Translations under genes and position numbers: made by a program
In this document: positions 1 through 59,374 of the stretch, one piece after another
Layout: every line of letters starts with the position of its first letter
Numbering within the stretch: position 1 is the stretch's first letter
The notes under the pieces: generated by a model
The model's input: the letters and a program-made list of their open reading frames with translations, nothing else
The model's database searches: none
What the model was told of the DNA's origin: nothing
NCBI RefSeq assembly: GCF_006345805.1
Contig: NC_042997.1
Span: 58,590,001 to 58,654,000 of the forward strand
Direction of reading: 5' to 3'
Length of the DNA: 64,000 nucleotides
Source of the DNA: Octopus sinensis
Taxonomy: Eukaryota

Positions 1-587
1 GTTATAAGTGATTAATCTAATACAGACTCTTCTACTGAGTCTCTATTCTCTATTGTATTTGAAGGTCCGAATTGTTCGTCTGGCCTCACTTTCCTCGAGG
101 GCCTACTATTTCCCCATTTTCACTTTCGTTTTTTAATTTATTTATGTGCTATACTCCTTTCATGCAACTCAGTTTTCTCTTTAAAACACGCAAGTTCTTT
201 ACCTATGGGATTTTAACTGCAGGCACTATTATCTATTCAGAAAAATTGTACGAAGTAAAACAAAACTGCAACCGATTGGCAATGTTACTACTCATAAATG
301 GCGACCAATGGAAGGACTCTAACCAAGAAAATAGCATTCTTCAAAAGTCTATATTACGCGTAATGAGTTTTGGCTCTGGCACCCCGAAGGTACAAGAACA
401 AGAATCGCTATCTTTAATATCTGAAGTGTCTTAAGAAAAATGTTCTAAATTTTGGAATATCTTATAAGTTTTTTTTTTAAATGATATTTTTAACAGTCAA
501 AATTTTTAGCCACCAGTTGTTTTATTCTCTACTTTAAAATATCAGAGTTTCTAATTGATCATCTGGTGCGTATACACATATAAATAT

Positions 588-781
588 TGATTTCAAATTT
601 TGGCACAAAGCCAGCAATTTCGGAGAGAGGTAAGTCGATAACATCGACCCCAGTGCTCAAATGGTACCTATTTTATCGACCCTGAAGGGATGAAAGGTAA
701 AGTTGACTCGACGGAATTTAAAGTCATAACGTAAAGACGGACGAAATGCCGCTAAGCATTGTTTACGGTATGCTAATGATT
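588..781 (-). mobile_element. tRNA-derived SINE, family A (octopus OK-like), decayed
   Basis: Reverse complement carries B-box-like head and GTCAACTTTACCTTTCATCCCTTCAGGGTCGATAAAATAGGTACC central domain shared with copies at 9.5, 34.6, 36.7 and 63.7 kb. Confidence 0.85.
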
Positions 782-1329
782 CACACATATAAATATTGAA
801 AAATCAGAAATGCAATATAAACAATAAAGAAAGTTAAATGCAGTTTGTAGCCCATGTATATCGGTATGGCAAATATCAAAAAGCACAGTGACTCGAATCG
901 CATAAAGTACTGAAGGGTAAAGATAATATTCCTTCGAAAAAATTTGCCAGTGCAGTCAGACACCCAAACACACACATAAACACACATGCTAGGAATTTGA
1001 AACAAATTTGCACTTGAAACAAATCTAATATTGAATTTTAAAATGGTGAACGGTGCTGACAAACATCCTGGTGGAGAACATCTACGAATGCAATAAGTTA
1101 GCTATTAATGCAATGAGTTAGCCATGGTTCTTACAGGACAAAAACATGGTGAAGCATTCCCAAGTAAAGTCTAGACAATACATTTCAAAGGATAACGGAG
1201 AGGCCTCTATGTTTATGGTCCACAAGAAAAAACAAAGATTATAGTAAAGAAGCTATGGTATAATTAAGTAAATTATTTATGTCGCTTATTCTACATTAAC
1301 GTTCATTCTGGGTAACGCAGGATACGTAC

Positions 1330-1386
<57 letters not shown>

Positions 1387-1429
1387 TATTGATAGGAATA
1401 TCGCCAATAATAATAAATGCAATCACTCG

Positions 1430-1950
1430 TTGAATTTGGGATTGGATAGTAAAAATAATTGTAACACTATTAATGGGAACATAGTTACAGAAATTTTGGC
1501 CAATGTTAGATTACCCCAACCTGTTGATAACTGTAATTTCAGAAACAGGAATCAATGTGTGTTTGGTAATCAATGCCTCAAGAGAGAGGCAGTTTATCAA
1601 TGCACTGTGGGTACACAATATAGCAGTAGGGTATACATCGGAGCAACTATGAATAGCATGAAACATAGACTTAATTATCATAGATATACTTTTAGAAATA
1701 AAAATAGGATGTACGCTACGGGTTAAGTACGTATATTTGGGAACTCAAAAGTAAGAACATAGATTTTAAATTAAATTGGAAAATACTAACTTCTGCACCT
1801 GTATATAATAGTAAAAATAAAAAATGCTCTCTATGTATTAATGACATTTTTTTCATCATCAAAGCTGGTATGCTTATTGTTAATAATATTAATGAGCGGA
1901 ATTTTTTTTGCATTCATAAACTACCGTACACTTTCTCTAGATTTAAATAG
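1430..1950 (+). pseudogene. Penelope-like GIY-YIG endonuclease C-terminal domain, frameshifted near 1723
   Basis: NCNFRNRNQCVFGNQCL..AVYQCTV..VYIGAT..KHRLNYH, then after a 1-nt shift LSTYIWELK..NWKIL..YNSKNKKCSLC..NINE..FCIHK*; matches the Cys-rich PLE GIY-YIG pattern. Confidence 0.9.
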
Positions 1951-2329
1951 AACTTAGCTTTTCTACTAGTAATATTTTAACTTTCCTCTACATCTGATTG
2001 TACTAGTGGTCTTTACAATTTGAAACATACAACTTGTAAATTTATAATCTTGTAGCTACACATATATATAAATATATGTTCTGTATTGATTGTTTTTTGT
2101 TTTTTGTCCTGGCTTATAAGGGAAATACACTGGGATATGAATATATATATTTTGGTATATACACAGCAATATGATATTCATGGGGATTTCCAAAATTGTT
2201 GAGTGTGTATGAGTACCATAGTTCGGGAAGCTGGTTTTAGATACTGTAATACTAATATGTAATATGTAATAAATGCGAGTCTATATTGAATGTACATTGT
2301 TTGTTTTGGATGAGTATATGGGTTTTTGC

Positions 2330-2770
2330 AGGTATTTATTTGGCAGTCTTATATATTGTATATTTAGTGTATCTTTGTACTCATCTTAATTTGTATCTTA
2401 TGTTATTTATTAATAAATCTATTCATTTACTTATATTTGGCTTTATACATATTAGCAGTCTTATATATTTAGATTATATTTGTACTCATCTTGATTTGTA
2501 CTTTATGTTATTTCTCTATTTATTTATTCATTTATCTATATGTAAATATTTACATAATAGCAGCCTGTATACTAAGTTTATCTATGTACTCATTTTAATG
2601 TATATTTTTTATTTTATTTTATGTTATTTATCTATTTATCTATTCATTTATGTATATGTGGATATATACATATTAGCAGTATTATATATTAAGTTTACCT
2701 TTGTATTTATCTTAATTTGTATTCTATGGTATTTATCTATTTATTTATTCATTTATTTATTTATATGTAG
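2330..2770. repeat. Degenerate ~110-bp tandem repeat, about 4 units
   Basis: Recurring TAGCAGTCTTATATATT...TTTGTACTCATCTTAATTTGTA near 2342, 2453, 2558 and 2674. Confidence 0.7.
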
Positions 2771-4360
2771 ATATATACATACATATCCATTATTTATTAA
2801 AATATATATATATGTATACAAGCTTTTACTTATATTTTCATTTTAATTTTAATTACTTCATCTTATTTTATTTTATTACATTTTAATTTTAAGTAATAAC
2901 AATTATTAACTTATAATTAATTTAATTTACAATTATTTACTTATATACTATTTATTGGTAAGTCCTGTTAATTACTATATATGTATTTATGCGTCCACTG
3001 ATATTATTTAATGCTAAAACCTGTTAATTATTATATATGTATTTATGTGTCCACTGATACTTAAAAAATATATATATATAAGTACTAGGAATGTTTACAC
3101 GCACATCATATGTGAAAATATATGGTGTGTATGTATATGTTTGTTGTTACACATGAGTATACATATGGATATGTAGATGTGAGTGTAATTCTATTAGTTC
3201 GTTTATGAGGGTTTAAATAGGAATATAATAGTATTGTAATAATACTAGACTTCTTACGTAGTGATGTTATCTGTATAAGCTATAAGGAGTTATTTTGATT
3301 ATATATCTTAGAATATTAGCGTATTTTGACTTTTTACAATTAATTTCTTATAATTTAATTATTATAAACCTCTGTTAACTTAGTATATATATATTTTTAT
3401 GTCTTTTGATAGACAAACATAAACGGGTATTCTATATTTTATAATTTAGTGAATGTTTGAATGAAACATAGCGGTAAAGTTGCGGGCATTTTTAGTTCTA
3501 AAATATTTTGTTTACGAGAAATATGGTGTCACATGAATTATGTACCTTATGACAAATTACACTCTCCATCTGGATATAATTATATGTATGATTGCATTTA
3601 CGGATTTATGGACATATGTGAGTGGATCTGTTTGTAAATACTTAGTTAATACCACCGCCATGGTGCCATCCGGGGCGGGTGGATGTCTGCATGCATGTAT
3701 GTGCAATCGGTTGAGTTCCTCAGTTTGCATGTGTATAGTTGGGATAGTACCTCTTATGTTATTTATTTATTTATTTATTTATGATTTGGTTGTGTATGTG
3801 GGTATGTCTGTGTGTATGTATATATGTGTGTGGGTGTGGGTATGTGTGTATACATATAACCATGTATGTATGTGCGCACGCTTTGTGGATGTGCGTGCGC
3901 GTGTGTATGTTTCCTAGCTAACTAACCGTAAAATTTCTATTGTAATCCAAATTTAAAAGTATAGGCCAATCGAATCCATCTGTGAAAATTAATACCATGC
4001 GGGCAGAGGAATTTGACTGATTGCGTATATATGCGGATGTCCGCTTGCATTGGATGGTACCGTCGTGGTGATATTAATTTTATTGACTTTTTGTGAAATG
4101 ACACATTTTAATATATTGGACTGTTTAATATATATGCCTGCTTTGAGTGTGAGTGTATCTGTTGTGGTTTCTTGATGTTGGTTGAGGAGCTGTGGAGTTC
4201 AATATGGAACATTATTGTGTTTGTTGATGTATATTGATCTATATTGTTTATATTGTATTATTGTGTATATATATATATGTAAGAATATGAGTGTGTATGC
4301 ACACATATTTATATTTATATGTAAATTTTTTAGGATTTGTACTCATACTTGCATTAAAAT

Positions 4361-4470
4361 CTCTGAAGAGGCCGTGAGATATTCTTGTTAATGTCTCATT
4401 TATACCTGCTTTATATGGCTAATAGGTTAAATGAGACATACCTGTCTTCACGGCCGAAACAGCTGTCAGC
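4361..4470 (+). ncRNA. Type I hammerhead ribozyme with extended stem II
   Basis: CUGAAGA 4363-4369; stem II GGCCGUGA/UCACGGCC; inner 12-bp helix 4391-4402/4428-4439; GAAA 4456-4459; palindromic stem III ACAGCUGU; GUC site at 4467; stem I only 2 bp. Confidence 0.8.
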
Positions 4471-4631
4471 TACAATGTAAATGTATTTCTATTTCTATTT
4501 CTATGTCTTGTTATATTTGTACTATATTAATGTATAATATCATTGCTATTGTGTAGTGGTTTAATAAAGTATCGATTGGGTATTATCTGATAGTTGATGA
4601 TTGATTTAGATATATTTCTCCATTTTCTCAT

Positions 4632-4682
<51 letters not shown>

Positions 4683-5029: not shown

Positions 5030-5580
5030 AAAATGTAATCAGGGTATCATCTACCGATGAGACATACTGTTGTATCTAGGACACTGTAAAACGAGATCCG
5101 TCGGAAGGATAAGCCCCAAGGATAAAGAAATAAGAACCTACAGTATGGTGGAAGCCATAGCCACTCATAATAAAAAGGAGTACTGGCGGGATGTCCTAGT
5201 GAAAACCTCAATAAAATGTAAATACAATAGACCTGACATAATGATTTGGGATAAAGAAGAGAAACTGTGTACAGTTGTGGAAATCAGTTGCCCAGTGGAT
5301 GTTAACATAAAGTTAAAGATCAGCAAAAATATACCTACACTGAACTATTGAGTAATTGGCAGTTACTCTATCTAGATTGTAAGTTCAGGTCGCTTATTCT
5401 ACATTAACGTAATTATTGGGGCACTGGGATAGGTAACACACTGCCTAAATACCAATCTTGAGAAATCAGGCTTTTCAAAACCAGAAAGGAGAAAGCTGAT
5501 TCGAAGACCACAGATCCAATCCATCACTGGAGCTGTAAAAATCTGAAAAATTTTCCAGAAGTTTATCATTTAAATTTATA
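5030..5580 (+). mobile_element. RLE-type non-LTR retrotransposon, C-terminal fragment, decayed
   Basis: YWRDVLVKTSIKCKYNRPDIMIWDKEEKLCTVVEISCPVD and downstream IIGALG: PD-(D/E)xK restriction-like endonuclease. Confidence 0.85.
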
Positions 5581-6656: not shown

Positions 6657-8832
6657 TACACATTGAAAAGTGGTTTGAGGTTGCTGTACAGTTTATGTTG
6701 TATAAACAAGAAAAAATTGGGTAACAATGCACAGTAACAAGAGAATTTTTATATTTTAGGCAAAGACAAAAGCAAGTGTAAAATTTCATTTAAATATTTC
6801 CTTTAAATATATTAGAGCTTTTTAATTTACACACGTACACAAACACACTCTCATACACGCACGCATGTACGCACGGATGCATGCACACACATTTACCATC
6901 AGTATAATGTATTACAATTATTTATGATATTTGTTTACCATCATTTTAGTTTTGTTGGTGGATGCAAATCTGGTTGAAATATAAGTTGAAATATAAATGC
7001 ATAAATGAAATACTGTATCATTGCCAATAATTGATATGTTCGTAAACAGAATGTGTTTGATATATAAATTGGCCTATCCAATTGTATTACACCGCTAAAC
7101 TTAATGAGTATTTAAGCAATGTAATCGTGGATAGTTTATGCGTTGGATGTGGTGATGATGAAAGAGCAATAACTCTTGAAATCTGCATGTACACCCATTA
7201 CTTACTTTACTATCTTCGATCGCATTGTTTACATAGACGTATTCATATACGAAATGTTGTAACTTGCAATACTAGGTCTGACTTCTATAGGAAATCTAAT
7301 TGAAATAAACTGAAAAGGTTAACATTAAAGTGTGGCGTGTTTCAAATGTCTGATCGATAATGCTTAGAACGCGGACATTTCCAGCAGGATATCTGTGTAC
7401 TGTGAAAAGCATTTTATCTAAAGAAAACCTTGAATCAAACTCTTAAATCAGTTGGTATTGTTTATGACTAGCGGTGCGTATGGACATAGATAAGGTCGGA
7501 AAGAACACTAAAGTTACGCTCACTGTTTTGACGTTGTCAACTTCACAATGAGTACGACAGTTAATTGCAAATAATTGTCGTTAAATCACACACTGCCCAC
7601 AGCTGCTGGCACCTATGAATAATGGATGATACTACATATAAATCAATTTGCCAATCAGCTAACCTTTGTAAAACAGCAATTCATTGCTGTAGACGTAATG
7701 GACTCAAAATTTATCCCTTAAAAGACTACATTTACATGAAATAATATATGATGATTATTACAAATAATTATCCTAACTGTATTTTATTGACGTTTTAAGA
7801 AGAAAATCAAAACAAGCACGACTTAAAAACTGATAAAACTTCGAGCTGTTACTTGAATACAAATAAGGTTCCTTTATCTACGACATTTTAGCAGTGACAC
7901 TGGTCATTATGCCTTCATAAAAAAGTCTAAGTATGCATATTCTAATATTTAAATGCGTACACGTGTACATGCGTACGTGCACATACATAAACACATAGCA
8001 TTAATGATTTATCACGTGCAAATCAGAAGAACTGGCATAAATTTAAATTATATAAAATATCAATGTGAATGAACTAAGACTGTGAACTCCTCTTCCTTGC
8101 TACTGGTATGCAGAAAAGAAGGTGGAGAAAGTTTCTTGGTAGGCCTTTTACGGTTTGCTAATCGCTCCTCAGCGAACACATAAACGGTCCCCTTCCTCAG
8201 TCAACAGCACAGGTCAGCTACTATACAAAGCAGTCATAAATTATCCTAACGCATTAGTGGATAGCCAAATCGGAAAATTTGTGCTAGCTCAATTTACAAG
8301 TGCTTTATACAATAGCTGATCTGTGCTGTTAATAGGGGAAGGAAGTCCGGAAACGTTTTGTCTAGGGAGCGTTCAACAAGCCATGAAACTGATTGGCAAG
8401 AAGTTCCTTTTTCCCTTTTTGATGCACATCAGTAGTCTAGAATGAATGTTTACATTCTTAGTTCACTCACAGTGAGGTTTTGCAATATTTAAATTTATTT
8501 CAGTTTACATTTCTGATTTCTATCTGGGAGTTAGCATGGCATTTACTTTCGGAGTATCATTTACAAACGTGTACCGGCAAAAATTTACAAAAAGTAGGTT
8601 TTCCCGTACGCGTATATAAGTTTAAATACAAGTAAAATAGCCTCATTAAGGGATAAAACATATATCTAATGAATTACTGGTTTGTTGCCTATTATAATTT
8701 TTTTGTGAATAGTAATATTCCTAAAATAATAGGTTTAAGTATAATTCTTGGTTTATACACATTCAAATTAAAATCCAGAAAATGGAGATGTAGCATTAAT
8801 ATAATTTGTTAACTACAAAAATTCAACATGTT

Positions 8833-8913
8833 CTCTTATAGATGTTTCGATTTTGCCCAAAGAATTAAATTCCAGTAATTAAAACATTTTATTGGGTAAA
8901 ATCTCGTCAGAGG
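8833..8913 (-). ncRNA. Long-stem-II hammerhead, degenerate copy
   Basis: CUGACGA-GAUUUU..CCCA/UGGG..AAAAUC-GAAA; stem III mutated (CAUCUAUA). Confidence 0.6.
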
Positions 8914-9545
8914 AGTAGAAAAGACAAACCGTTGGGTTATTAGACGTTATTCTTCCAAAACATCCCAACAGACTGAATACCATTTAATTACTAATATTGG
9001 TATAAACCTTGACCAGAGGATAATGAGTTATATTAGGGTAATAATTGGTAAATAAAGGTTAGATAGTGAGTTACAGTAAATACTTGTATCATATGAATGA
9101 GATAATAAATAAGTGAATATTTTTATAATTTGTTTAAAAAATTGATGGAATTAATATGAAAAATAGCTGAAGTATAAATAATCATAGTTAGAAAGGACCT
9201 GCGTCTTATTATATATACAGTGCACATACACAGAGATGTATATGTATGTATATACATACATATATACACACATATGCACGCATTCACATTCAAGATATAC
9301 ACTTCTAGGTAATAATGTATACGTATAAGTAACAATATGTGCATATATGTAAAAATACATACGCATAGATTACGCGTACATAAACAGTGGGTACAAATAT
9401 GTATGTATGAAGTACGCTCACGTGAAAAATTTTTTATATGTGCATATACATACACCTACGCACATACGCATTCGTATATCAACACGTATACTTAAGCATT
9501 AATACATAATTAAAAAAATACAATTGTATGTAACACATTTTTCTA

Positions 9546-10019: not shown

Positions 10020-10385
10020 CAATATTTTATTTTATATTTATATCCAGCGTTAAATAACGCTATATTATAGGGGTGTGAATGTTTATTAAATACATCTTTA
10101 TTGGAAGATAGAGATTTTATTCTTTCATAAATATTATAGACTAGTGCTTTTTTTTATCGATTTCGAGGGTTGCTTTGAAAATTTATATATTTTAAGATGG
10201 GATTGGGTTTTCCAAAAGGATCTTGTAAGTCAGTTGCTAAATTGAAGTTAACATCCAGAAGATTTATTGAGCTTTTATCTCTATCGGTAGTAATAGAAAA
10301 ACCATATCTTTTGAAGAATTTGTATAATGGTTTTTTAAAAATTATTTCTAGTCGTCTATTAGAAGCATTTAAAAAATTGTCATGT
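10020..10385 (-). pseudogene. Penelope-like reverse transcriptase palm-thumb fragment
   Basis: Manual translation FFKRYGFSITTD..INLLDVNFNL..PFGKPNPILKYINFQSN..*..IKSLSSNKDVF..YNIALFNAGY matches the PLE FLDV..KP..SNHP..LSS..AL..GY pattern. Confidence 0.85.
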
Positions 10386-10490
10386 ATGATCCTCCACGGT
10401 TTATACCAATATTAGTAATTGAATGATATTCAATCTATTGAAATGTTTAGGAAAAATGACATCTAATAACCTAACGGTAAATCTTTTCAA

Positions 10491-10572
10491 CTCTCTGACG
10501 AGATTTAGCCCGATAAAATGTTTTAATTACTGGAATTTAATTCTTTGAGCAAAATCGAAACAGCTGTAAGAG
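10491..10572 (+). ncRNA. Type I hammerhead ribozyme with extended stem II, intact core
   Basis: Stem I CUCU/AGAG; CUGACGA 10495-10501; stem II GAUUU/AAAUC; GAAA 10557-10560; palindromic ACAGCUGU; GUA site at 10568. Confidence 0.8.
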
Positions 10573-10627
10573 AACATGTTGAATTTTTGTAGTAATAAAC
10601 TATATTAATGCTACAGCTCCATTTTCC

Positions 10628-13489: not shown

Positions 13490-13571
13490 TGGCTTACAAC
13501 TGTTTCTGATATAAAATGCTTGTAGTCAGAGCTGAGGGATCATGCTGTAGCTTATAGCTTCCTCGGAGCCA
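13490..13571 (-). ncRNA. Degenerate long-stem-II hammerhead
   Basis: Stem I UGGCU/AGCCA; CCGAGGA (U4C); ~54-nt stem II region; GAAACAGUUGUA. Confidence 0.5.
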
Positions 13572-22370: not shown

Positions 22371-24045
22371 TTTTATATTCGTCTGGTGTCAGCACAGGAT
22401 ATCCCGAGACGAGATGGTCTATTGTTTCGTCAAATGTGTCGCAGAATCTGCATTTAGGGTTAGAACCATTTTAAAGAATGTTAGCCTGGTAGTTTTTTGT
22501 GAGCAAGCTTTGGTCTTGTGCCACCTATATGGAACCTTCAGTCTCTGCTTTCAGTCCTGAACTTCTCAGCCACTGATGGTTGTTGCTTGATCTACATCAA
22601 CATTTCGACTTCGAAGTATATACTGTCCATGCAGAGGCTTCTGGCTTCACGGCTCCTCAATTTGTTTCTGTCCGTTTTTTTTTTTTTTGCAATCTGCTTG
22701 ATCCATTTTGCTTGTTTTGTGTCAGTGGTTTCAGGTTCTTCAATTATTTTAGGGTTAGTGCCAAGTTCCCTTGCGAATTTGCAAGCTTCTTTGACAATTG
22801 AATGTAACTTTTTGCTGCTTTCGTAATGGCACACAAGTCGCAGCGTCCAGTCCTCTGTACTGCATAAGTATCTGTTCATTGGTATTGTGGAGGTCTTACA
22901 GTACAGTGCTACCTGCATCATTCCTCTTCCCCTATTACTTCTAGGCAAGTACAGTCGATCAACATCTATTTTGGGATAGTGCATGTTTTTAAAAGTTAGT
23001 ATTTTTCTTGCCTTCCTGTCCAGGCGTTGGAGCTCTGTAAGATTCCAGTTAATGATGTTAAAACTATATTGGACTACTGGAAGCGCCAGTGTGTTAATGG
23101 CTTCTATGCGATTTTTAGAGTTGATTTCAGTTTTTAGTATGAGTCTTATTCGCCTTTAATATTCTTTTCTTGATTTTTCCTTCATAGTAGCATGTTGTAT
23201 ACCATCCCCTTCATTTATCTCCAGATATTTGTAATTGTCTTGTGGGTCAAACTTCTTGATGTTAGCGTCGGTATCTAATTTAATGGAAGCTGTTTGCCTG
23301 AGCTTGCCTCTTACAAAAGTAATGGGGAGAGGGAGTAATTTTGAAAGATGCAACGTTTGATGTTGATGTTGTTAGTTTGACTCATCCCATTATTATGGTT
23401 TAGAAGGAGACATGTATTCCACTTGGCCATGTTACCTTCTAAGAATCTGGAGATATATATCTCAAGGGCCTTGATTATCCAATTATGTGGGATACTATCA
23501 AACGCTTTCCTGTAGTCTATCCATGCCATACTCAGGTTTTTCTTTTTGCCCGGCAATTCTCTACGATCATTTTACGTATGAGTAATTGATCTTTACCCCC
23601 ATAATAATTCCCTTTACAGCCTTTTTGAGCTTGTGCAAGAATAGGTCTCTGTTCAAGAATGCGTATATTCTGTCAGTTAATATGGATATGAGGATCTTGT
23701 AGGTGGTGTTGAAACATGTTATTGGTCAGTAGTTCTTGGATATTTTTTTGTGTTCACTTTTTGGTAGAAGGTATGTTGTTCCTTCAGTCAGCCAAGCAGG
23801 TATTTGCTCTGGGTTCTAGATGACATCAGTCAGAGAAGCAGCTAAATTTTGTTCTTCTGTCAGACAATTTAACCAGAAGTTATTAACTCGGTCCAGTCCC
23901 GCAGTTTTCCATTTGCAAGACTTCCTAATAACACATATTAGCTCTTCTATTCATATTGCCTTCCATTTCTGCTCTTCAACTTCATTCAGTCTCCCTTTCT
24001 CACGCTCTATCCAGTCAGCTTTAGCATTATATTCTTTTTTGTTGC
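22371..24045 (-). mobile_element. R4/Dong-clade LINE, decayed RT to zinc-knuckle region
   Basis: AWIDYRKAFDSIPHNWI, IKRCIFQNYSLSPLL, YKYLEINE, AINTLALPV, VDRLYLPRSNRGRG, CRFC..DETIDHLVS; many stops and frameshifts. Confidence 0.92.
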
Positions 24046-42318: not shown

Positions 42319-44292
42319 CAGTGATACCTTGATGGGGCGGAGAGGAGGATTATTGTTTAGAAGGAGATTCTCATTCCATTAAGACTTCAGGAAGAACAAT
42401 TTCTGATGTTTTTCTCTCACTTCGCTTATTTTAGGCTTTTTGGACACATTTTCTTCACTTTTTATATTTGCAGGTCGTTTCATTAGAAACATATCAAGAG
42501 AAGTCTGCTGTTTCCTACTTCTCAAAATGCTACCAAAACGGACCAGAGCAATGTTATTAAATAAAACAGCCGTAGCTACTTTTGCAGGATGATATTTTTC
42601 TACAAATTCAGAAACATACTCTCACTTTGCCAGCACTCCTTTTATGTCACTCGTAGAGATAGCATTCTCCACTACGCTATCCTCCTCCGGGGAACCAATC
42701 TTTTCCATCGCATCCAAATGCTGCTGCTCCAAAAGTTGCAGGAATTCATCTGTCATCAGCTCCTCTGAGTGTTCCTCAACGAGATCGTTAATGTCCCCAT
42801 CATCAACCTCGATGCCCATGGACTCGTTAAGGTATGCTATCTCCTCGACTACGGGTGCCTCAAACTCAAACCCCTCGAAGTTGCTTTCAGATACGCAGTC
42901 AGGCCATAGTTTCTTCCATGCAGAATTCGGTGTTCTCCTCGTTACAACTTGCCAGGCCATATCGATGATTTTCAGGCAGTGCTCTTTTCAAAACTCGTGA
43001 GTGGTTAGATTTGTATTTTCAGTGACTTCAAAGCGTCGACGAAATAGGCTTCTGGTGTACAATTCTTAAAATCAGAAATCGCCTGTTGGTCCATGGGCTG
43101 CAAGACAGGTGTGGTGTTGCGTGAAAGGTACAGAACTTTTATAAATTTAAATTCGTCCAGGATATCATCTTCGAGGTTAGGAGCGTGAGGATAAGGAGGA
43201 CCTTGAGAGGAAGATCATTCTTCAGAAGGTACCTTTTCACTGCTGGTTCGAAGACAAGGTTGACTCACTCGGAGAAGAATTGCCTGGTGACCCAGACCTT
43301 AATGTTTGCCCTCCACATGAACTGCAGCTTCTCCTTCAGGATTTTGTGCAAATTGAACGCTCGTGGGTTTTCGGAAAGGTAGACAAGGAGCGGCTTAAGC
43401 TTCACGTCTCCTTTCGCATTGGCACCAAGGACGAGAGTTAGACTATCTTTCATAGGCTTGTGGCCTGCATTTTCTTCTCCACTGCAGTTATGTAGGTTTT
43501 TCTGGGCATTTTTTACCCAAAAAGGCCAGTTTCGTCACAGTTGAATACCTGTTGTGCGATGTACCCCGCATCTGCGATGAGCTGACGGAATTCACGCGTG
43601 AAATTTTCAGCTGACTTTGTGTCAAACCTCGCTGTTTCTCCATATCTGACGACGCTATGAACACCAGTCCTATTCTTAAAATTATCAGACCAGCCGCAAC
43701 TTGCCTTAAATACGTCAGCTGATGTCTCCTCCGTCGATGTTCCAGGGTTCTGCTTTAGCAGATCCCCATACAGCTTTCTAGCATATGATGGTTTCCGTAA
43801 TCGTATCTCTTGCGAGTTGCTTTTCGTTCATCCACAGGAGAAGCAATTTTTCCATTCTTTTCTGCTTCGGCCGTATTGACATGCTATGTCCACTACATGC
43901 ACTCCTTTCATATTTATCAATTATTTCCTTCTTCAATTCTATCGCAATCAACTTTTTCTTCTTCTCAGCACTATCCTTTGCACTAACTTTCTTAGGACCC
44001 ATGGCTAACACAATTAATTATTATACAGTGATAGCAAAAGATACACAAAACTAAACAAAAACACCGGGAAAAACACAAAAGGGATGCTGTCACGAGATAA
44101 AGACGTGAACTGAGCGAGCGAAGACAGCGCCTGTTGGGAGAGCGTGTGCTAGCTCAGCGTTGACTAGCGGTCGCTTGCATGAATCTCGTGCGTACTGCGG
44201 ATTTTCGGTTGTACATCAAAACAAAAATTCGCATGAGTCTCGGCTCGTACAGAAAATTACACGTGCAATGGGGCACCCGTACTGGGGTTCTA

Positions 44293-57500: not shown

Positions 57501-57579
57501 GAAAGGTGTACGCAAATTGAAATGCGTATTGGTTCTGGCCCATCGCCTTAAGATTATAAGTTACTAAAATTACTAAAAT

Positions 57580-58049
57580 TATTGTTTTTCTTCTCAGAGG
57601 GTTCGATCTTGTTTGCTCTAGTAGATTCTGTGAGAGCGGACAGCAGCCTGCTGTCAGAGATCTCACAAGGTCTCTTTCCGCACCTTATAAGCTTTGGTAC
57701 CAATCTCAAAATCCCAGCTGTCCCCAGTAGTGCTGTTTTGAGGGCTTGCTCTACTCTTAAGTCAATTCCGATTTCTCTGACATATTTCTCGAATTTGGTT
57801 GTTAGTGCTCCGAGTGTTTCTACAACTACTGGAATAACAAACATTCTCCTCATAGTCCACATTCTTGCAATTTCGCTATTTAGTAGTCTGTACTTTTCAA
57901 TCATTTCTAGTTCTCTGTCATTTATGCGCGCATCTCCAGGTATTGCAATATTTATAGTCTTGGTTCCGTTTTTTCCTTTATTTACCACAACAATATCTGG
58001 TCTCCGAGTCTCGATTAGGGAGTTACATTGGATTGTAAAATCCCACATC

Positions 58050-58050
<1 letters not shown>
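57580..58050 (-). mobile_element. R4/Dong LINE 3' end (RLE domain plus UTR), 5'-truncated at (TAA)n
   Basis: WDFTIQCNSLIETRRPDIVVVNK..INIAIPGD..EKY..IPVVVETLG..KTALLGTAGILR. Confidence 0.92.
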
Positions 58051-58124
<74 letters not shown>

Positions 58125-58125
<1 letters not shown>

Positions 58126-59226
58126 TATGTTTGACTTTTGCTTTATGTCTGTACAAGTTGGCTCCAAGTCTCACCCAGAGACCTCAAGAGACAACAGGTT
58201 GGAAGTTCTGTGCCATATATTTGTTTTGTTTTTTTTTGTTTTTTTTTGGTGTTGTACTAGTGAATGTCTAATACATAAAAAATAAATAAATAAATAAATA
58301 AATAAAAAGTTTGTTTTAAACCTTGGGATTACATAGAGAGTATTTTGCGTAGGATATGAGCAGTTCCCATGAGCACTATCTTTTGAATTTCTGCCATTTT
58401 GGGGTTTCCTGGTATCTGAGTTAGGTAGCAATCAGTCCCTTTCGCTATCATTCCCAGGGCACCTATGACAACAGGTATTGTTTTAGTCTTCAGCTTCCAC
58501 ATTTTGCTGATTTCTATTTCAAGATCTTTATATTTGCTCAGTTTTTGGTAGGTCTTGACAGATACGTTTATATCGATTGGGACAGTCATATCAATGAGGA
58601 GGCATGTTCTTTGTCTGAAGTCTTTCAATATAATGTCTGGCCTATTTGCATCTATCTTCCTGTCAGTTTGAATGGTGAAGTTCCAGAGGAGTGAGATGTG
58701 GTCATTTTCAAGCACAGGAGGTGGATTGTGTTCCCACCAGTTTTTTTCATGGGGCAAATCCAGGTTTTTGCAAATTACCCAGTGAATATATTGTGCAGCT
58801 CTATCATGCCTACTGAGGTACTCTGTAGGCGCTAGAAGACTGCATTTGGAGACAACATGGTCAATGGTTTCATTTTGTTGTCGGCATACACGACATGTTG
58901 GGCTACTGCCGTTCTTTAATATGTTGGCCTGGTAGTTTCTTGTTGGTAGGCATTGATCTTGAGCTGCTATGATAAACCCCTCTGTTTCAGATTTTAAGCC
59001 AGAGGCCATTAGCCATTGTTGGGTCAGGGCTTTGTCGATATCTGCATTATTCGCTCTCTTTGGGTATTTGCCACACAGAGGTTTTTCTTGCCATTTATTA
59101 TTCAGAATATCTAAGGCCGCAGTTTTGGCACGGGTTTTCATGCGCCTAGCTTTTTCTGTGCTTGTTTCTTGTATATCTATCTCTAATTCCGAAATTGGTT
59201 GTATTCGGAATTCACTTAGATATTCC
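58125..59226 (-). mobile_element. R4/Dong LINE 3' 1.1 kb with open C-terminal ORF (stop at 58329), flanked by (TAA)n
   Basis: LKSETEGFIIAAQDQ, CRVC..ETIDHVVSKC (CCHC), RHD, RPDII..LLIDMTVP..K..KY; UTR runs into (AAT)n. Confidence 0.95.
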
Positions 59227-59281
<55 letters not shown>

Positions 59282-59337
59282 CATTATTATTATTATTGTT
59301 ATTATTATTATTATTATTATCATTATTATTATTATTA

Positions 59338-59374
<37 letters not shown>

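What the first reader, a model, noticed from the sequence alone, without database searches (positions are those of the whole stretch)
4361..4470. Hammerhead class with a very long structured stem II and dimer-type palindromic stem III
Seen: intact core, an 86-nt stem II domain (8-bp base, 12-bp perfect inner helix, 4-bp distal helix) and stem III ACAGCUGU. The same architecture with unrelated stem II sequence recurs at 10491, 8833 and 13490. Established: PLEs carry minimal type I hammerheads whose palindromic stem III allows dimeric cleavage. Inference: the large stem II insert is a shared design across several families here, is missed by short-loop motif searches, and may stabilise folding or bind RT.
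Basis: partly seen in the sequence, partly recalled or inferred. Interest (0 to 1): 0.7.

Follow-up and report, generated by a model that had tools for sequence, protein, structure and literature searches.

The report
Long-armed hammerhead of Hydra retrotransposon
This is the tail end of an abundant jumping gene (a Penelope-like retrotransposon) carrying a hammerhead-ribozyme motif whose second arm is about four times longer than published search patterns allow and is kept paired across related families; the RNA is predicted to cut only weakly and as a pair, the arm likely serves as a folding or protein-binding handle, and cutting is untested.

Summary
The motif is real: intact core at 4363-4467, an 86-nt stem II folding as described (z -7) and the self-complementary stem III ACAGCUGU. 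It lies 169 nt from the 3' end of a 5'-truncated Hydra-clade Penelope-like element. Corrections: stem I is only 2 bp; 8833 and 10491 are inverted copies of one family, and 8833 and 13490 are damaged. Genome-wide, cores 30-130 nt apart with an 8-nt stem III number 57,831 (control 5,022); 65 of the first 100 carry perfect palindromes of ten kinds. The arm shows 6 independent compensatory changes (null 0.9). Published descriptors cap stem II near 24 nt, and Rfam misses it. Against efficient cutting: the short stem I, a rival dimer register, 527 related copies with a U4C core, and 102 of 105 copies reading through the cut site. Best reading: a slow, dimer- and likely protein-gated ribozyme, with the arm as a structural handle. 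PLE hammerheads are known; the long arm was not found in my literature searches, but this scan noted it before on other DNA. New variant of a known kind.

The parts
1384..4636 (+). 5'-truncated Hydra-clade Penelope-like element copy, between (TA)n tracts
   Evidence: aligns end to end at 84-95% with long genomic copies; 3' end followed by TA repeat in 71 of 105 copies
1388..1947 (+). C-terminal piece of the ORF: linker and GIY-YIG endonuclease, frameshifted near 1720
   Evidence: intact in L080, L081, L089
1948..4360 (+). 2.4-kb AT-rich 3' UTR with internal repeats near 2356-2781
4361..4362 (+). stem I, 5' strand (2 bp only)
4363..4369 (+). hammerhead core CUGAAGA
   Evidence: sequence
4370..4455 (+). 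86-nt rod-like stem II (8 + 4 + 2 + 12 + 4 + 3 bp)
   Evidence: covariation
4456..4467 (+). GAAA, palindromic stem III ACAGCUGU (4459-4466), C17; predicted cut between 4467 and 4468
4468..4469 (+). stem I, 3' strand
4470..4636 (+). rest of the terminal repeat up to the first end site (inferred RT start site 1)
8778..9011 (-). inverted terminal piece of a second Hydra-type family; hammerhead core 8910-8904, 55-nt stem II, broken stem III
10043..10369 (-). Hydra-type RT fragment between the two inverted copies of the second family
   Evidence: tblastn E 1e-22
10395..10626 (+). terminal piece of the second family; hammerhead 10491-10572, intact core, 4-bp stem I, 55-nt stem II
13490..13570 (-). 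worn hammerhead of a third family: CCGAGGA core, 53-nt stem II, stem III ACAGUUGU
   Evidence: aligns to intact copy L121

Best explanation
The motif is the type I hammerhead in the terminal repeat of a Hydra-clade Penelope-like retrotransposon, with stem II expanded into a conserved 85-110-nt rod; it is predicted to cut slowly and only when two copies pair through the 8-nt palindrome, likely with help from the element's own protein, for which the rod likely serves as a folding unit or handle. Shown: the element, its ends, the arm's pairing and the palindrome's covariation. Shown from genomic copies: copies end 169 nt or about 345 nt past the cut site, and that stretch runs on into the 5' UTR and ORF of the next unit, so the template is longer than one unit or circular. 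Inferred: a transcript that starts just upstream of one hammerhead and runs through the 5.8-kb unit past the next one carries two hammerheads that can pair. RT then starts at the two downstream sites, as shown in vitro for PAc, and nearly always copies across the cut site, so the template is uncut or re-ligated. Cutting is probably a slow side step (trimming or circularisation), not a requirement for each insertion.
For: Element: 17 of 20 loci picked by the GIY-YIG region carry this hammerhead downstream on the same strand within the fetched 9.9 kb. Their ORFs show YRDD, DKT, RWK, CxxC and CxH and insert in (TA)n, as described for Hydra. Arm: of 28 representatives under 90% alike, 63 cells change on both sides vs 33 shuffled (0 of 500) and 16-28 when slid; tree-aware count 6 events vs 0.9 (0 of 5,000). 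Class: 57,831 vs 5,022 control for 30-130 nt, 17,944 vs 1,289 for 4-29 nt. 65 of the first 100 listed are perfect palindromes of 10 kinds, 77 with G-U (hand tally; about 7 expected). Other Hydra families have 53-55-nt arms and other palindromes just after their endonuclease (L014, L031, L078, L285). Monomer stem III is barely formed (P about 0.001); the 8-bp dimer register beats two monomers in 6 of 7 natural copies. Ends: 71 of 105 at site 1, 20 with the 175-nt tail. L083 begins 9 nt before the core and runs through both sites into the ATG. PAc's hammerhead cuts only with protein and is not needed for insertion in vitro (PMC11167929).
Against: No cleavage, binding or RNA-end data. Stem I is 2 bp in the window's subfamily, and there a shifted 10-bp dimer register that buries the cut site is 4 kcal/mol more stable than the catalytic one. 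527 group copies carry U4C against 996 canonical. Only 3 of 105 copies start at 4467-4468, against 8 in the 30 nt before. In one search the count of pairs with a two-sided change (12) did not exceed shuffles (315 of 500). Only 40 of 97 sampled long arms fold at z below -2, with some loci counted twice. Only 4 of 60 unselected loci show a Hydra ORF piece within 5 kb, so PLE origin is shown for a handful of families, not all. The role of the arm is pure inference.
Confidence: 0.55

Rival explanations
1. The ribozyme is an efficient dimer cutter whose job is to release unit-length RNA that is ligated into a circle; RT then runs round the circle, and the arm only stabilises the core in place of loop-loop contacts.
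For: Permuted order of ends and read-through of the cut site fit a circle. Core and palindrome kept across thousands of copies. Proposed for PLEs in PMC4209133. Three copies start at the cut site.
Against: 2-bp stem I, rival register and a thriving U4C lineage. Read-through is equally explained by uncut tandem RNA. PLE hammerheads cut slowly in vitro.
Confidence: 0.22
2. In this group catalysis is largely dispensable, and the motif now works as an RNA dimerisation and RT-loading signal: the palindrome pairs two RNAs or two ends, and the arm binds the protein.
For: Arm pairing and palindrome persist in the U4C clade (18 rows, support 99/92) and in the 2-bp-stem-I subfamily. Catalytic mutants of PAc still insert in vitro.
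Against: The other core letters stay intact in those lineages. U4C lowers activity but still supports viroid infectivity (PMC3088659). PAc's protein-binding region was mapped into the ORF, not to a long arm.
Confidence: 0.15
3. The long arm is a tolerated insertion: only the helix next to the core matters, and the rest pairs because unstructured inserts would misfold the core, with no function of its own.
For: Arm sequences differ completely between families and range from about 12 to 130 nt. Distal columns change as often as flanks (3.3-4.3 vs 3.8-6.0 changes per column; base helix 0.5). Many sampled arms fold weakly.
Against: Compensatory changes occur in three separate sub-helices, including ones far from the core. 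Long arms outnumber short ones about 3 to 1, and lengths cluster near 50-60 and 80-100 nt. This rival concerns the arm only and is compatible with the PLE-hammerhead identity.
Confidence: 0.3

Closest known systems
Hammerheads of Hydra-clade C-terminal EN+ PLEs, including Hydra-1_Obim (Craig et al. 2021, PMC8557442; seen: passages, section 11, supplement part 2 with File S2, supplement passages)
   Same: Same protein motifs, (TA)n targeting, type I hammerhead 100-200 nt from the 3' end; several start stem III with ACAG and end it with CUGU.
   Different: Listed Hydra stem II domains are about 10-24 nt, here 86. Listed stem III can fold as a monomer hairpin with a 1-3-nt loop, here it is a perfect 8-nt palindrome with no loop. 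The unit is about 5.8 kb against under 3 kb, and the tail is 175 nt against 30-40.
Metazoan PLE min-HHR and palindromic helix III variants (Cervera and de la Pena 2014, PMC4209133; seen: parts 1-2 of 4, passages of supplement file 2; file 1 could not be searched)
   Same: Type I topology, short helix I (2 bp in Drosophila virilis Penelope), palindromic helix III, dimer model, inverted pairs of truncated copies.
   Different: Helix II of 7-8 bp was called large, and the descriptor stops at 7 bp plus a 10-nt loop.
PAc Poseidon element of Anolis (PMC11167929; seen: passages and section 3 part 2)
   Same: Two RT start sites downstream of the hammerhead bounding an optional tail; AT-rich targets; hammerhead upstream of the ORF in tandem form.
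   Different: In PAc the ORF starts inside stem II and the tail is short; here the ATG is about 515 nt past the cut site.
PLE-X1_sMoe hammerhead (File S2 of PMC8557442)
   Same: A PLE hammerhead with an enlarged stem II domain (9 bp plus a 35-nt loop).
   Different: A single spike-moss family marked as deviating from the canonical structure; no palindromic 8-nt stem III; not Hydra clade.
Metazoan non-LTR retrozymes (PMC7229834, passages; bioRxiv 10.64898/2026.07.22.740005, abstract and one passage)
   Same: Type I hammerheads working as dimers; non-coding tandem units with a 44-nt arm exist in this genome (L284, L287).
   Different: The finding's copy belongs to a protein-coding 5.8-kb element, not to a 150-400-nt tandem repeat.

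Membership tests
Type I hammerhead ribozyme | Core CUGANGA, GAAA, UH in type I order | tested here: met
   4363-4467
Type I hammerhead ribozyme | Stem II closing the core | tested here: met
   8 bp, closing pair probability 0.99; covariation
Type I hammerhead ribozyme | Stem I of 3 bp or more | tested here: not met
   2 bp in this copy and its subfamily; 3-4 bp in sister subfamilies; a 2-bp helix I is published for D. virilis Penelope
Type I hammerhead ribozyme | Self-cleavage at the UH site | not testable with these tools
   no assay; only contigs were available, no raw RNA reads
Type I hammerhead ribozyme | Match to an Rfam hammerhead model | tested here: not met
   no hammerhead family at E up to 10 for 4300-4530; expected, since the models have short stem II
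Dimer-type PLE hammerhead | Unstable, palindromic stem III | tested here: met
   monomer pair probability about 0.001; duplex -11.1 kcal/mol; ten palindromes among families
Dimer-type PLE hammerhead | Published min-HHR descriptor (stem II 3-7 bp, loop 3-10 nt) | tested here: not met
   86-nt stem II vs descriptor
Penelope-like element, EN+ | Single ORF with RT then GIY-YIG endonuclease | tested here: met
   L077, L080, L081, L083, recognised by motifs; Pfam gave no hit
Penelope-like element, EN+ | 5' truncation, inverted 5' pieces, optional tail, partial tandem (pLTR) | tested here: met
Hydra clade | RWK, DKT, CxxC and CxH motifs, no CCHH | tested here: met
   RIRWK; SDKT, CSLC, CIH; definition; N-terminal RT resembles Hydra proteins shown by eye
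Hydra clade | CxCx5C linker | tested here: inconclusive
   complete in 5 of 20 copies, second Cys is Phe in 15
Hydra clade | (TA)n insertion | tested here: met
   71 of 105 copies
Hydra clade | Generally shorter than 3 kb | tested here: not met
   unit about 5.8 kb from L083 and window coordinates; descriptive, not defining
Hydra clade | Placement in an RT phylogeny | not tested
   reference proteins were not available as tool sequences
Non-LTR retrozyme | Short non-coding tandem repeat | tested here: not met
   this copy is part of a coding element

The most novel reading that the evidence does not exclude
In this animal the commonest hammerhead is a long-armed form (some 50,000 motifs) that has become an RNA pairing and loading signal for Penelope-like elements: the 8-nt palindrome acts as a partly family-specific dimerisation code, like a retroviral dimer-initiation palindrome, the rod binds the element's RT, and catalysis is being tuned down in successful lineages (U4C, 2-bp stem I).
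Probability: 0.15. Interest if true: 0.75.

Novelty: new variant of a known kind. Interest (0 to 1): 0.45.

Why it matters
What hammerheads do for Penelope-like elements is an open question. This family offers natural pairs to compare: canonical vs U4C core, 2-bp vs 4-bp stem I, 86- vs 100-nt arm, ten palindromes. It also shows that standard descriptors miss about three quarters of the motifs of this type in this genome, so hammerhead counts in other animals, and claims that some PLE families lack one, may need redoing with a long stem II allowed.

Tried and rejected
Rfam: whole window gave microsatellite-driven miRNA hits among the 150 of 199 rows shown; 4300-4530 gave no hammerhead. Pfam found no RT or GIY-YIG family in four ORF pieces. 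Expression: no RNA holder listed on record. Contigs of eight runs cover the motif, but contigs cannot show ends or strand. Contigs in two studies stop near 4353 and depth rises there, but the presumed DNA runs show a step too (4- and 10-fold), so I do not count it. A pile-up of copy starts at the cut site is at most a weak hint: 3 of 105, roughly p 0.02-0.05 by my estimate. A pile-up just upstream of the core (5 starts in 4343-4360) is too small to call. The first ORF-association count was inflated by a repeat-derived stretch at the start of the query and was redone with trimmed queries. RNAalifold on the plain alignment recovered only the two basal helices. Nematis was considered from memory and rejected after reading the supplement. 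One or two origins of U4C could not be settled because the root is uncertain. Lunse et al. (PMC5785218) is not held, so long stem II variants there cannot be excluded; Arkhipova et al. 2017 on Terminons was not read. Literature searches found no description of a 50-110-nt stem II in animal PLE hammerheads. bioRxiv supplements and figures could not be seen.

Full report
Observation. The window reads CTGAAGA (4363-4369), an 86-nt segment, GAAA, CAGCTG, TC. Stem I is only 2 bp. Of the three other sites, 10491 is intact, 8833 is an inverted copy of the same family with a broken stem III, and 13490 is a worn copy of a third family. Their arms are unrelated to the 4363 arm.

The element. The flanks match a repeat with 2,087 first-look candidates in a 2.72-Gb genome; size, microsatellites and the presence of Hydra elements suggest an octopus, which is my inference. 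Copies share the 3' end at 4636 and are truncated or inverted at the 5' side. Upstream lies a frameshifted GIY-YIG piece. Of 20 loci picked by that region, 17 carry the same hammerhead downstream within the fetched stretch, and several keep RT coding sequence with YRDD. RWK, DKT, CxxC, CxH and (TA)n targeting fit the Hydra clade as described in PMC8557442 section 11. The CxCx5C linker is complete in 5 of 20 copies. Pfam gave nothing and no tree with reference proteins was made.

Ends. Among 105 distinct copies holding the 21 bases after the cut site, 71 end at 4636 in TA repeats, 20 go on for a 175-nt tail to a second, similar end site, and 14 are other or unclear. In L083 the tail continues into the 5' UTR and an ATG about 515 nt past the cut site, and that copy begins in TA repeats 9 nt before the core. 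The element is thus written as a permuted or more-than-unit copy, with two end sites downstream of the hammerhead. This mirrors PAc, where the two RT start sites bound the tail (PMC11167929, section 3 part 2). 102 of the 105 copies extend 5' across the cut site; 3 start at 4467-4468, against 8 in 4436-4465.

The class. With stem III fixed as ACAGCTGT there are 5,905 matches with 30-130 nt between the core halves (control 6) and 2,164 with 4-29 nt (control 1). With the four inner letters free there are 57,831 (control 5,022) and 17,944 (control 1,289). In the first 100 long ones listed I counted by hand 65 perfect palindromes of ten kinds and 77 allowing G-U; about 7 are expected. The palindrome, not its sequence, is what is kept, although ACAGCTGT is shared by many families. 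In a sample of 90 loci (97 motif rows of 30 nt or more, a few counted twice) arm lengths cluster at 50-60 and 80-100 nt, and 40 fold at z below -2; many old copies fold weakly. Four other Hydra-type loci have 53-55-nt arms within about 200-600 nt after their endonuclease, and the 8833/10491 pair flanks a Hydra RT piece. Only 4 of 60 unselected loci show a Hydra ORF piece within 5 kb, and some long-armed motifs sit in 400-nt non-coding tandems, so PLE origin is shown for some families only.

Is the arm under selection? The window's arm belongs to a group with 996 exact matches. I aligned 28 representatives of 81 distinct sequences, each under 90% alike, by sequence alone. On a structure I drew from single-sequence folds, 79.7% of cells pair and 63 change on both sides, against 33 in shuffles (0 of 500) and 16-28 when slid; the number of pairs with such a change (12) was not above shuffles. 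Counting on a tree gives 6 independent double changes in three sub-helices against 0.9 for re-paired columns (0 of 5,000). RNAalifold alone found only the basal helices. The group was selected by core and stem ends, so their invariance in that alignment is not evidence. With stem III left free, most of the first 100 of 1,123 matches still read ACAGCTGT.

Is it an efficient cutter? Probably not. Monomer stem III is almost never formed. The 8-bp dimer register is more stable than two monomers in 6 of 7 natural copies, but in the window's subfamily a shifted 10-bp register covering the cut site is 4 kcal/mol better still. With the 5' core left free, my hand tally of the first 100 of 1,749 matches is 52 canonical, 35 CC-type, 7 single changes and 6 not assignable. 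U4C copies number 527 and form an amplified clade on a tree of the downstream flank. U4C lowers activity in vitro yet supports viroid infectivity (PMC3088659, passage). Among young copies the core is no more conserved than the 3' flank, which is uninformative for dead copies. No raw RNA reads were available.

Mechanism. Shown: identity of the element, end sites, arm pairing, palindrome covariation. Inferred: a transcript with two terminal repeats pairs its two hammerheads through the palindrome; the rod folds on its own, closes the core and likely offers a surface for the RT protein, by analogy with the protein-assisted PAc hammerhead; cutting is slow and RT mostly uses uncut or re-ligated RNA. 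The rivals are efficient cutting with circles, loss of catalysis with a pairing role, and a functionless arm.

Comparison and novelty. Hammerheads in PLE terminal repeats with palindromic helix III are known (PMC4209133, parts 1-2 of 4; review PMC6765202, passages). Listed Hydra hammerheads have stem II domains of about 10-24 nt, and one spike-moss element has about 53 nt, marked as deviant. The published descriptor stops at 7 bp plus 10 nt, and a core-only search used a 7-17-nt spacer. Seven literature searches and passages of PMC13725137 and PMC7229834 showed no long-armed animal class. Lunse et al. was not held. Earlier notes of this scan describe the same class in this and other genomes; I had reached the Hydra assignment before seeing them. 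Verdict: real, a new variant of a known kind, interest 0.45.

Noticed in passing
L005:1796-1983; L083:3655-3990: 175-nt tail between two end sites that both finish in a near-identical TCTCATTTT motif; a small hairpin precedes the second site. Much longer than the 30-40-nt tails described for PLEs.
   Followed up: partly
L284:2581-4307; L287:2798-3558: Tandem 400-nt non-coding units, each with a hammerhead (44-nt stem II, ACTGCAGT palindrome) and no PLE ORF hit: retrozyme-like.
   Followed up: partly
G000:C1:257506-258667: Tandem units about 559 nt apart with a 25-nt stem II and an ACGTACGT palindrome; very frequent among short-arm matches.
   Followed up: no
L080:5137-6765; L081:3180-5408: The family ORF has an Asn-rich low-complexity stretch of some 250 residues between RT thumb and endonuclease, kept in frame in several copies.
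   Followed up: no
window 4461-4471: In the youngest subfamily one letter both shortens stem I to 2 bp and creates a rival self-complementary register over the cut site.
   Followed up: partly
L289-L318: Amplified lineage with a U4C core, 527 exact matches, in both 86- and 100-nt arm types.
   Followed up: partly
window 5040-5560, 22592-23155, 57554-59339: Fragments that look like R2-superfamily LINE ORFs with a restriction-like endonuclease (label recalled, not searched).
   Followed up: no
window 42622-43827 (-): Two ORF pieces resembling a Tigger/pogo-type transposase (label recalled).
   Followed up: no
window 575-782: Short repeat that matches many unrelated loci at 73-85%, probably a SINE.
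   Followed up: no
window 2356-2781: Degenerate repeats about 105 nt apart inside the 3' UTR.
   Followed up: no
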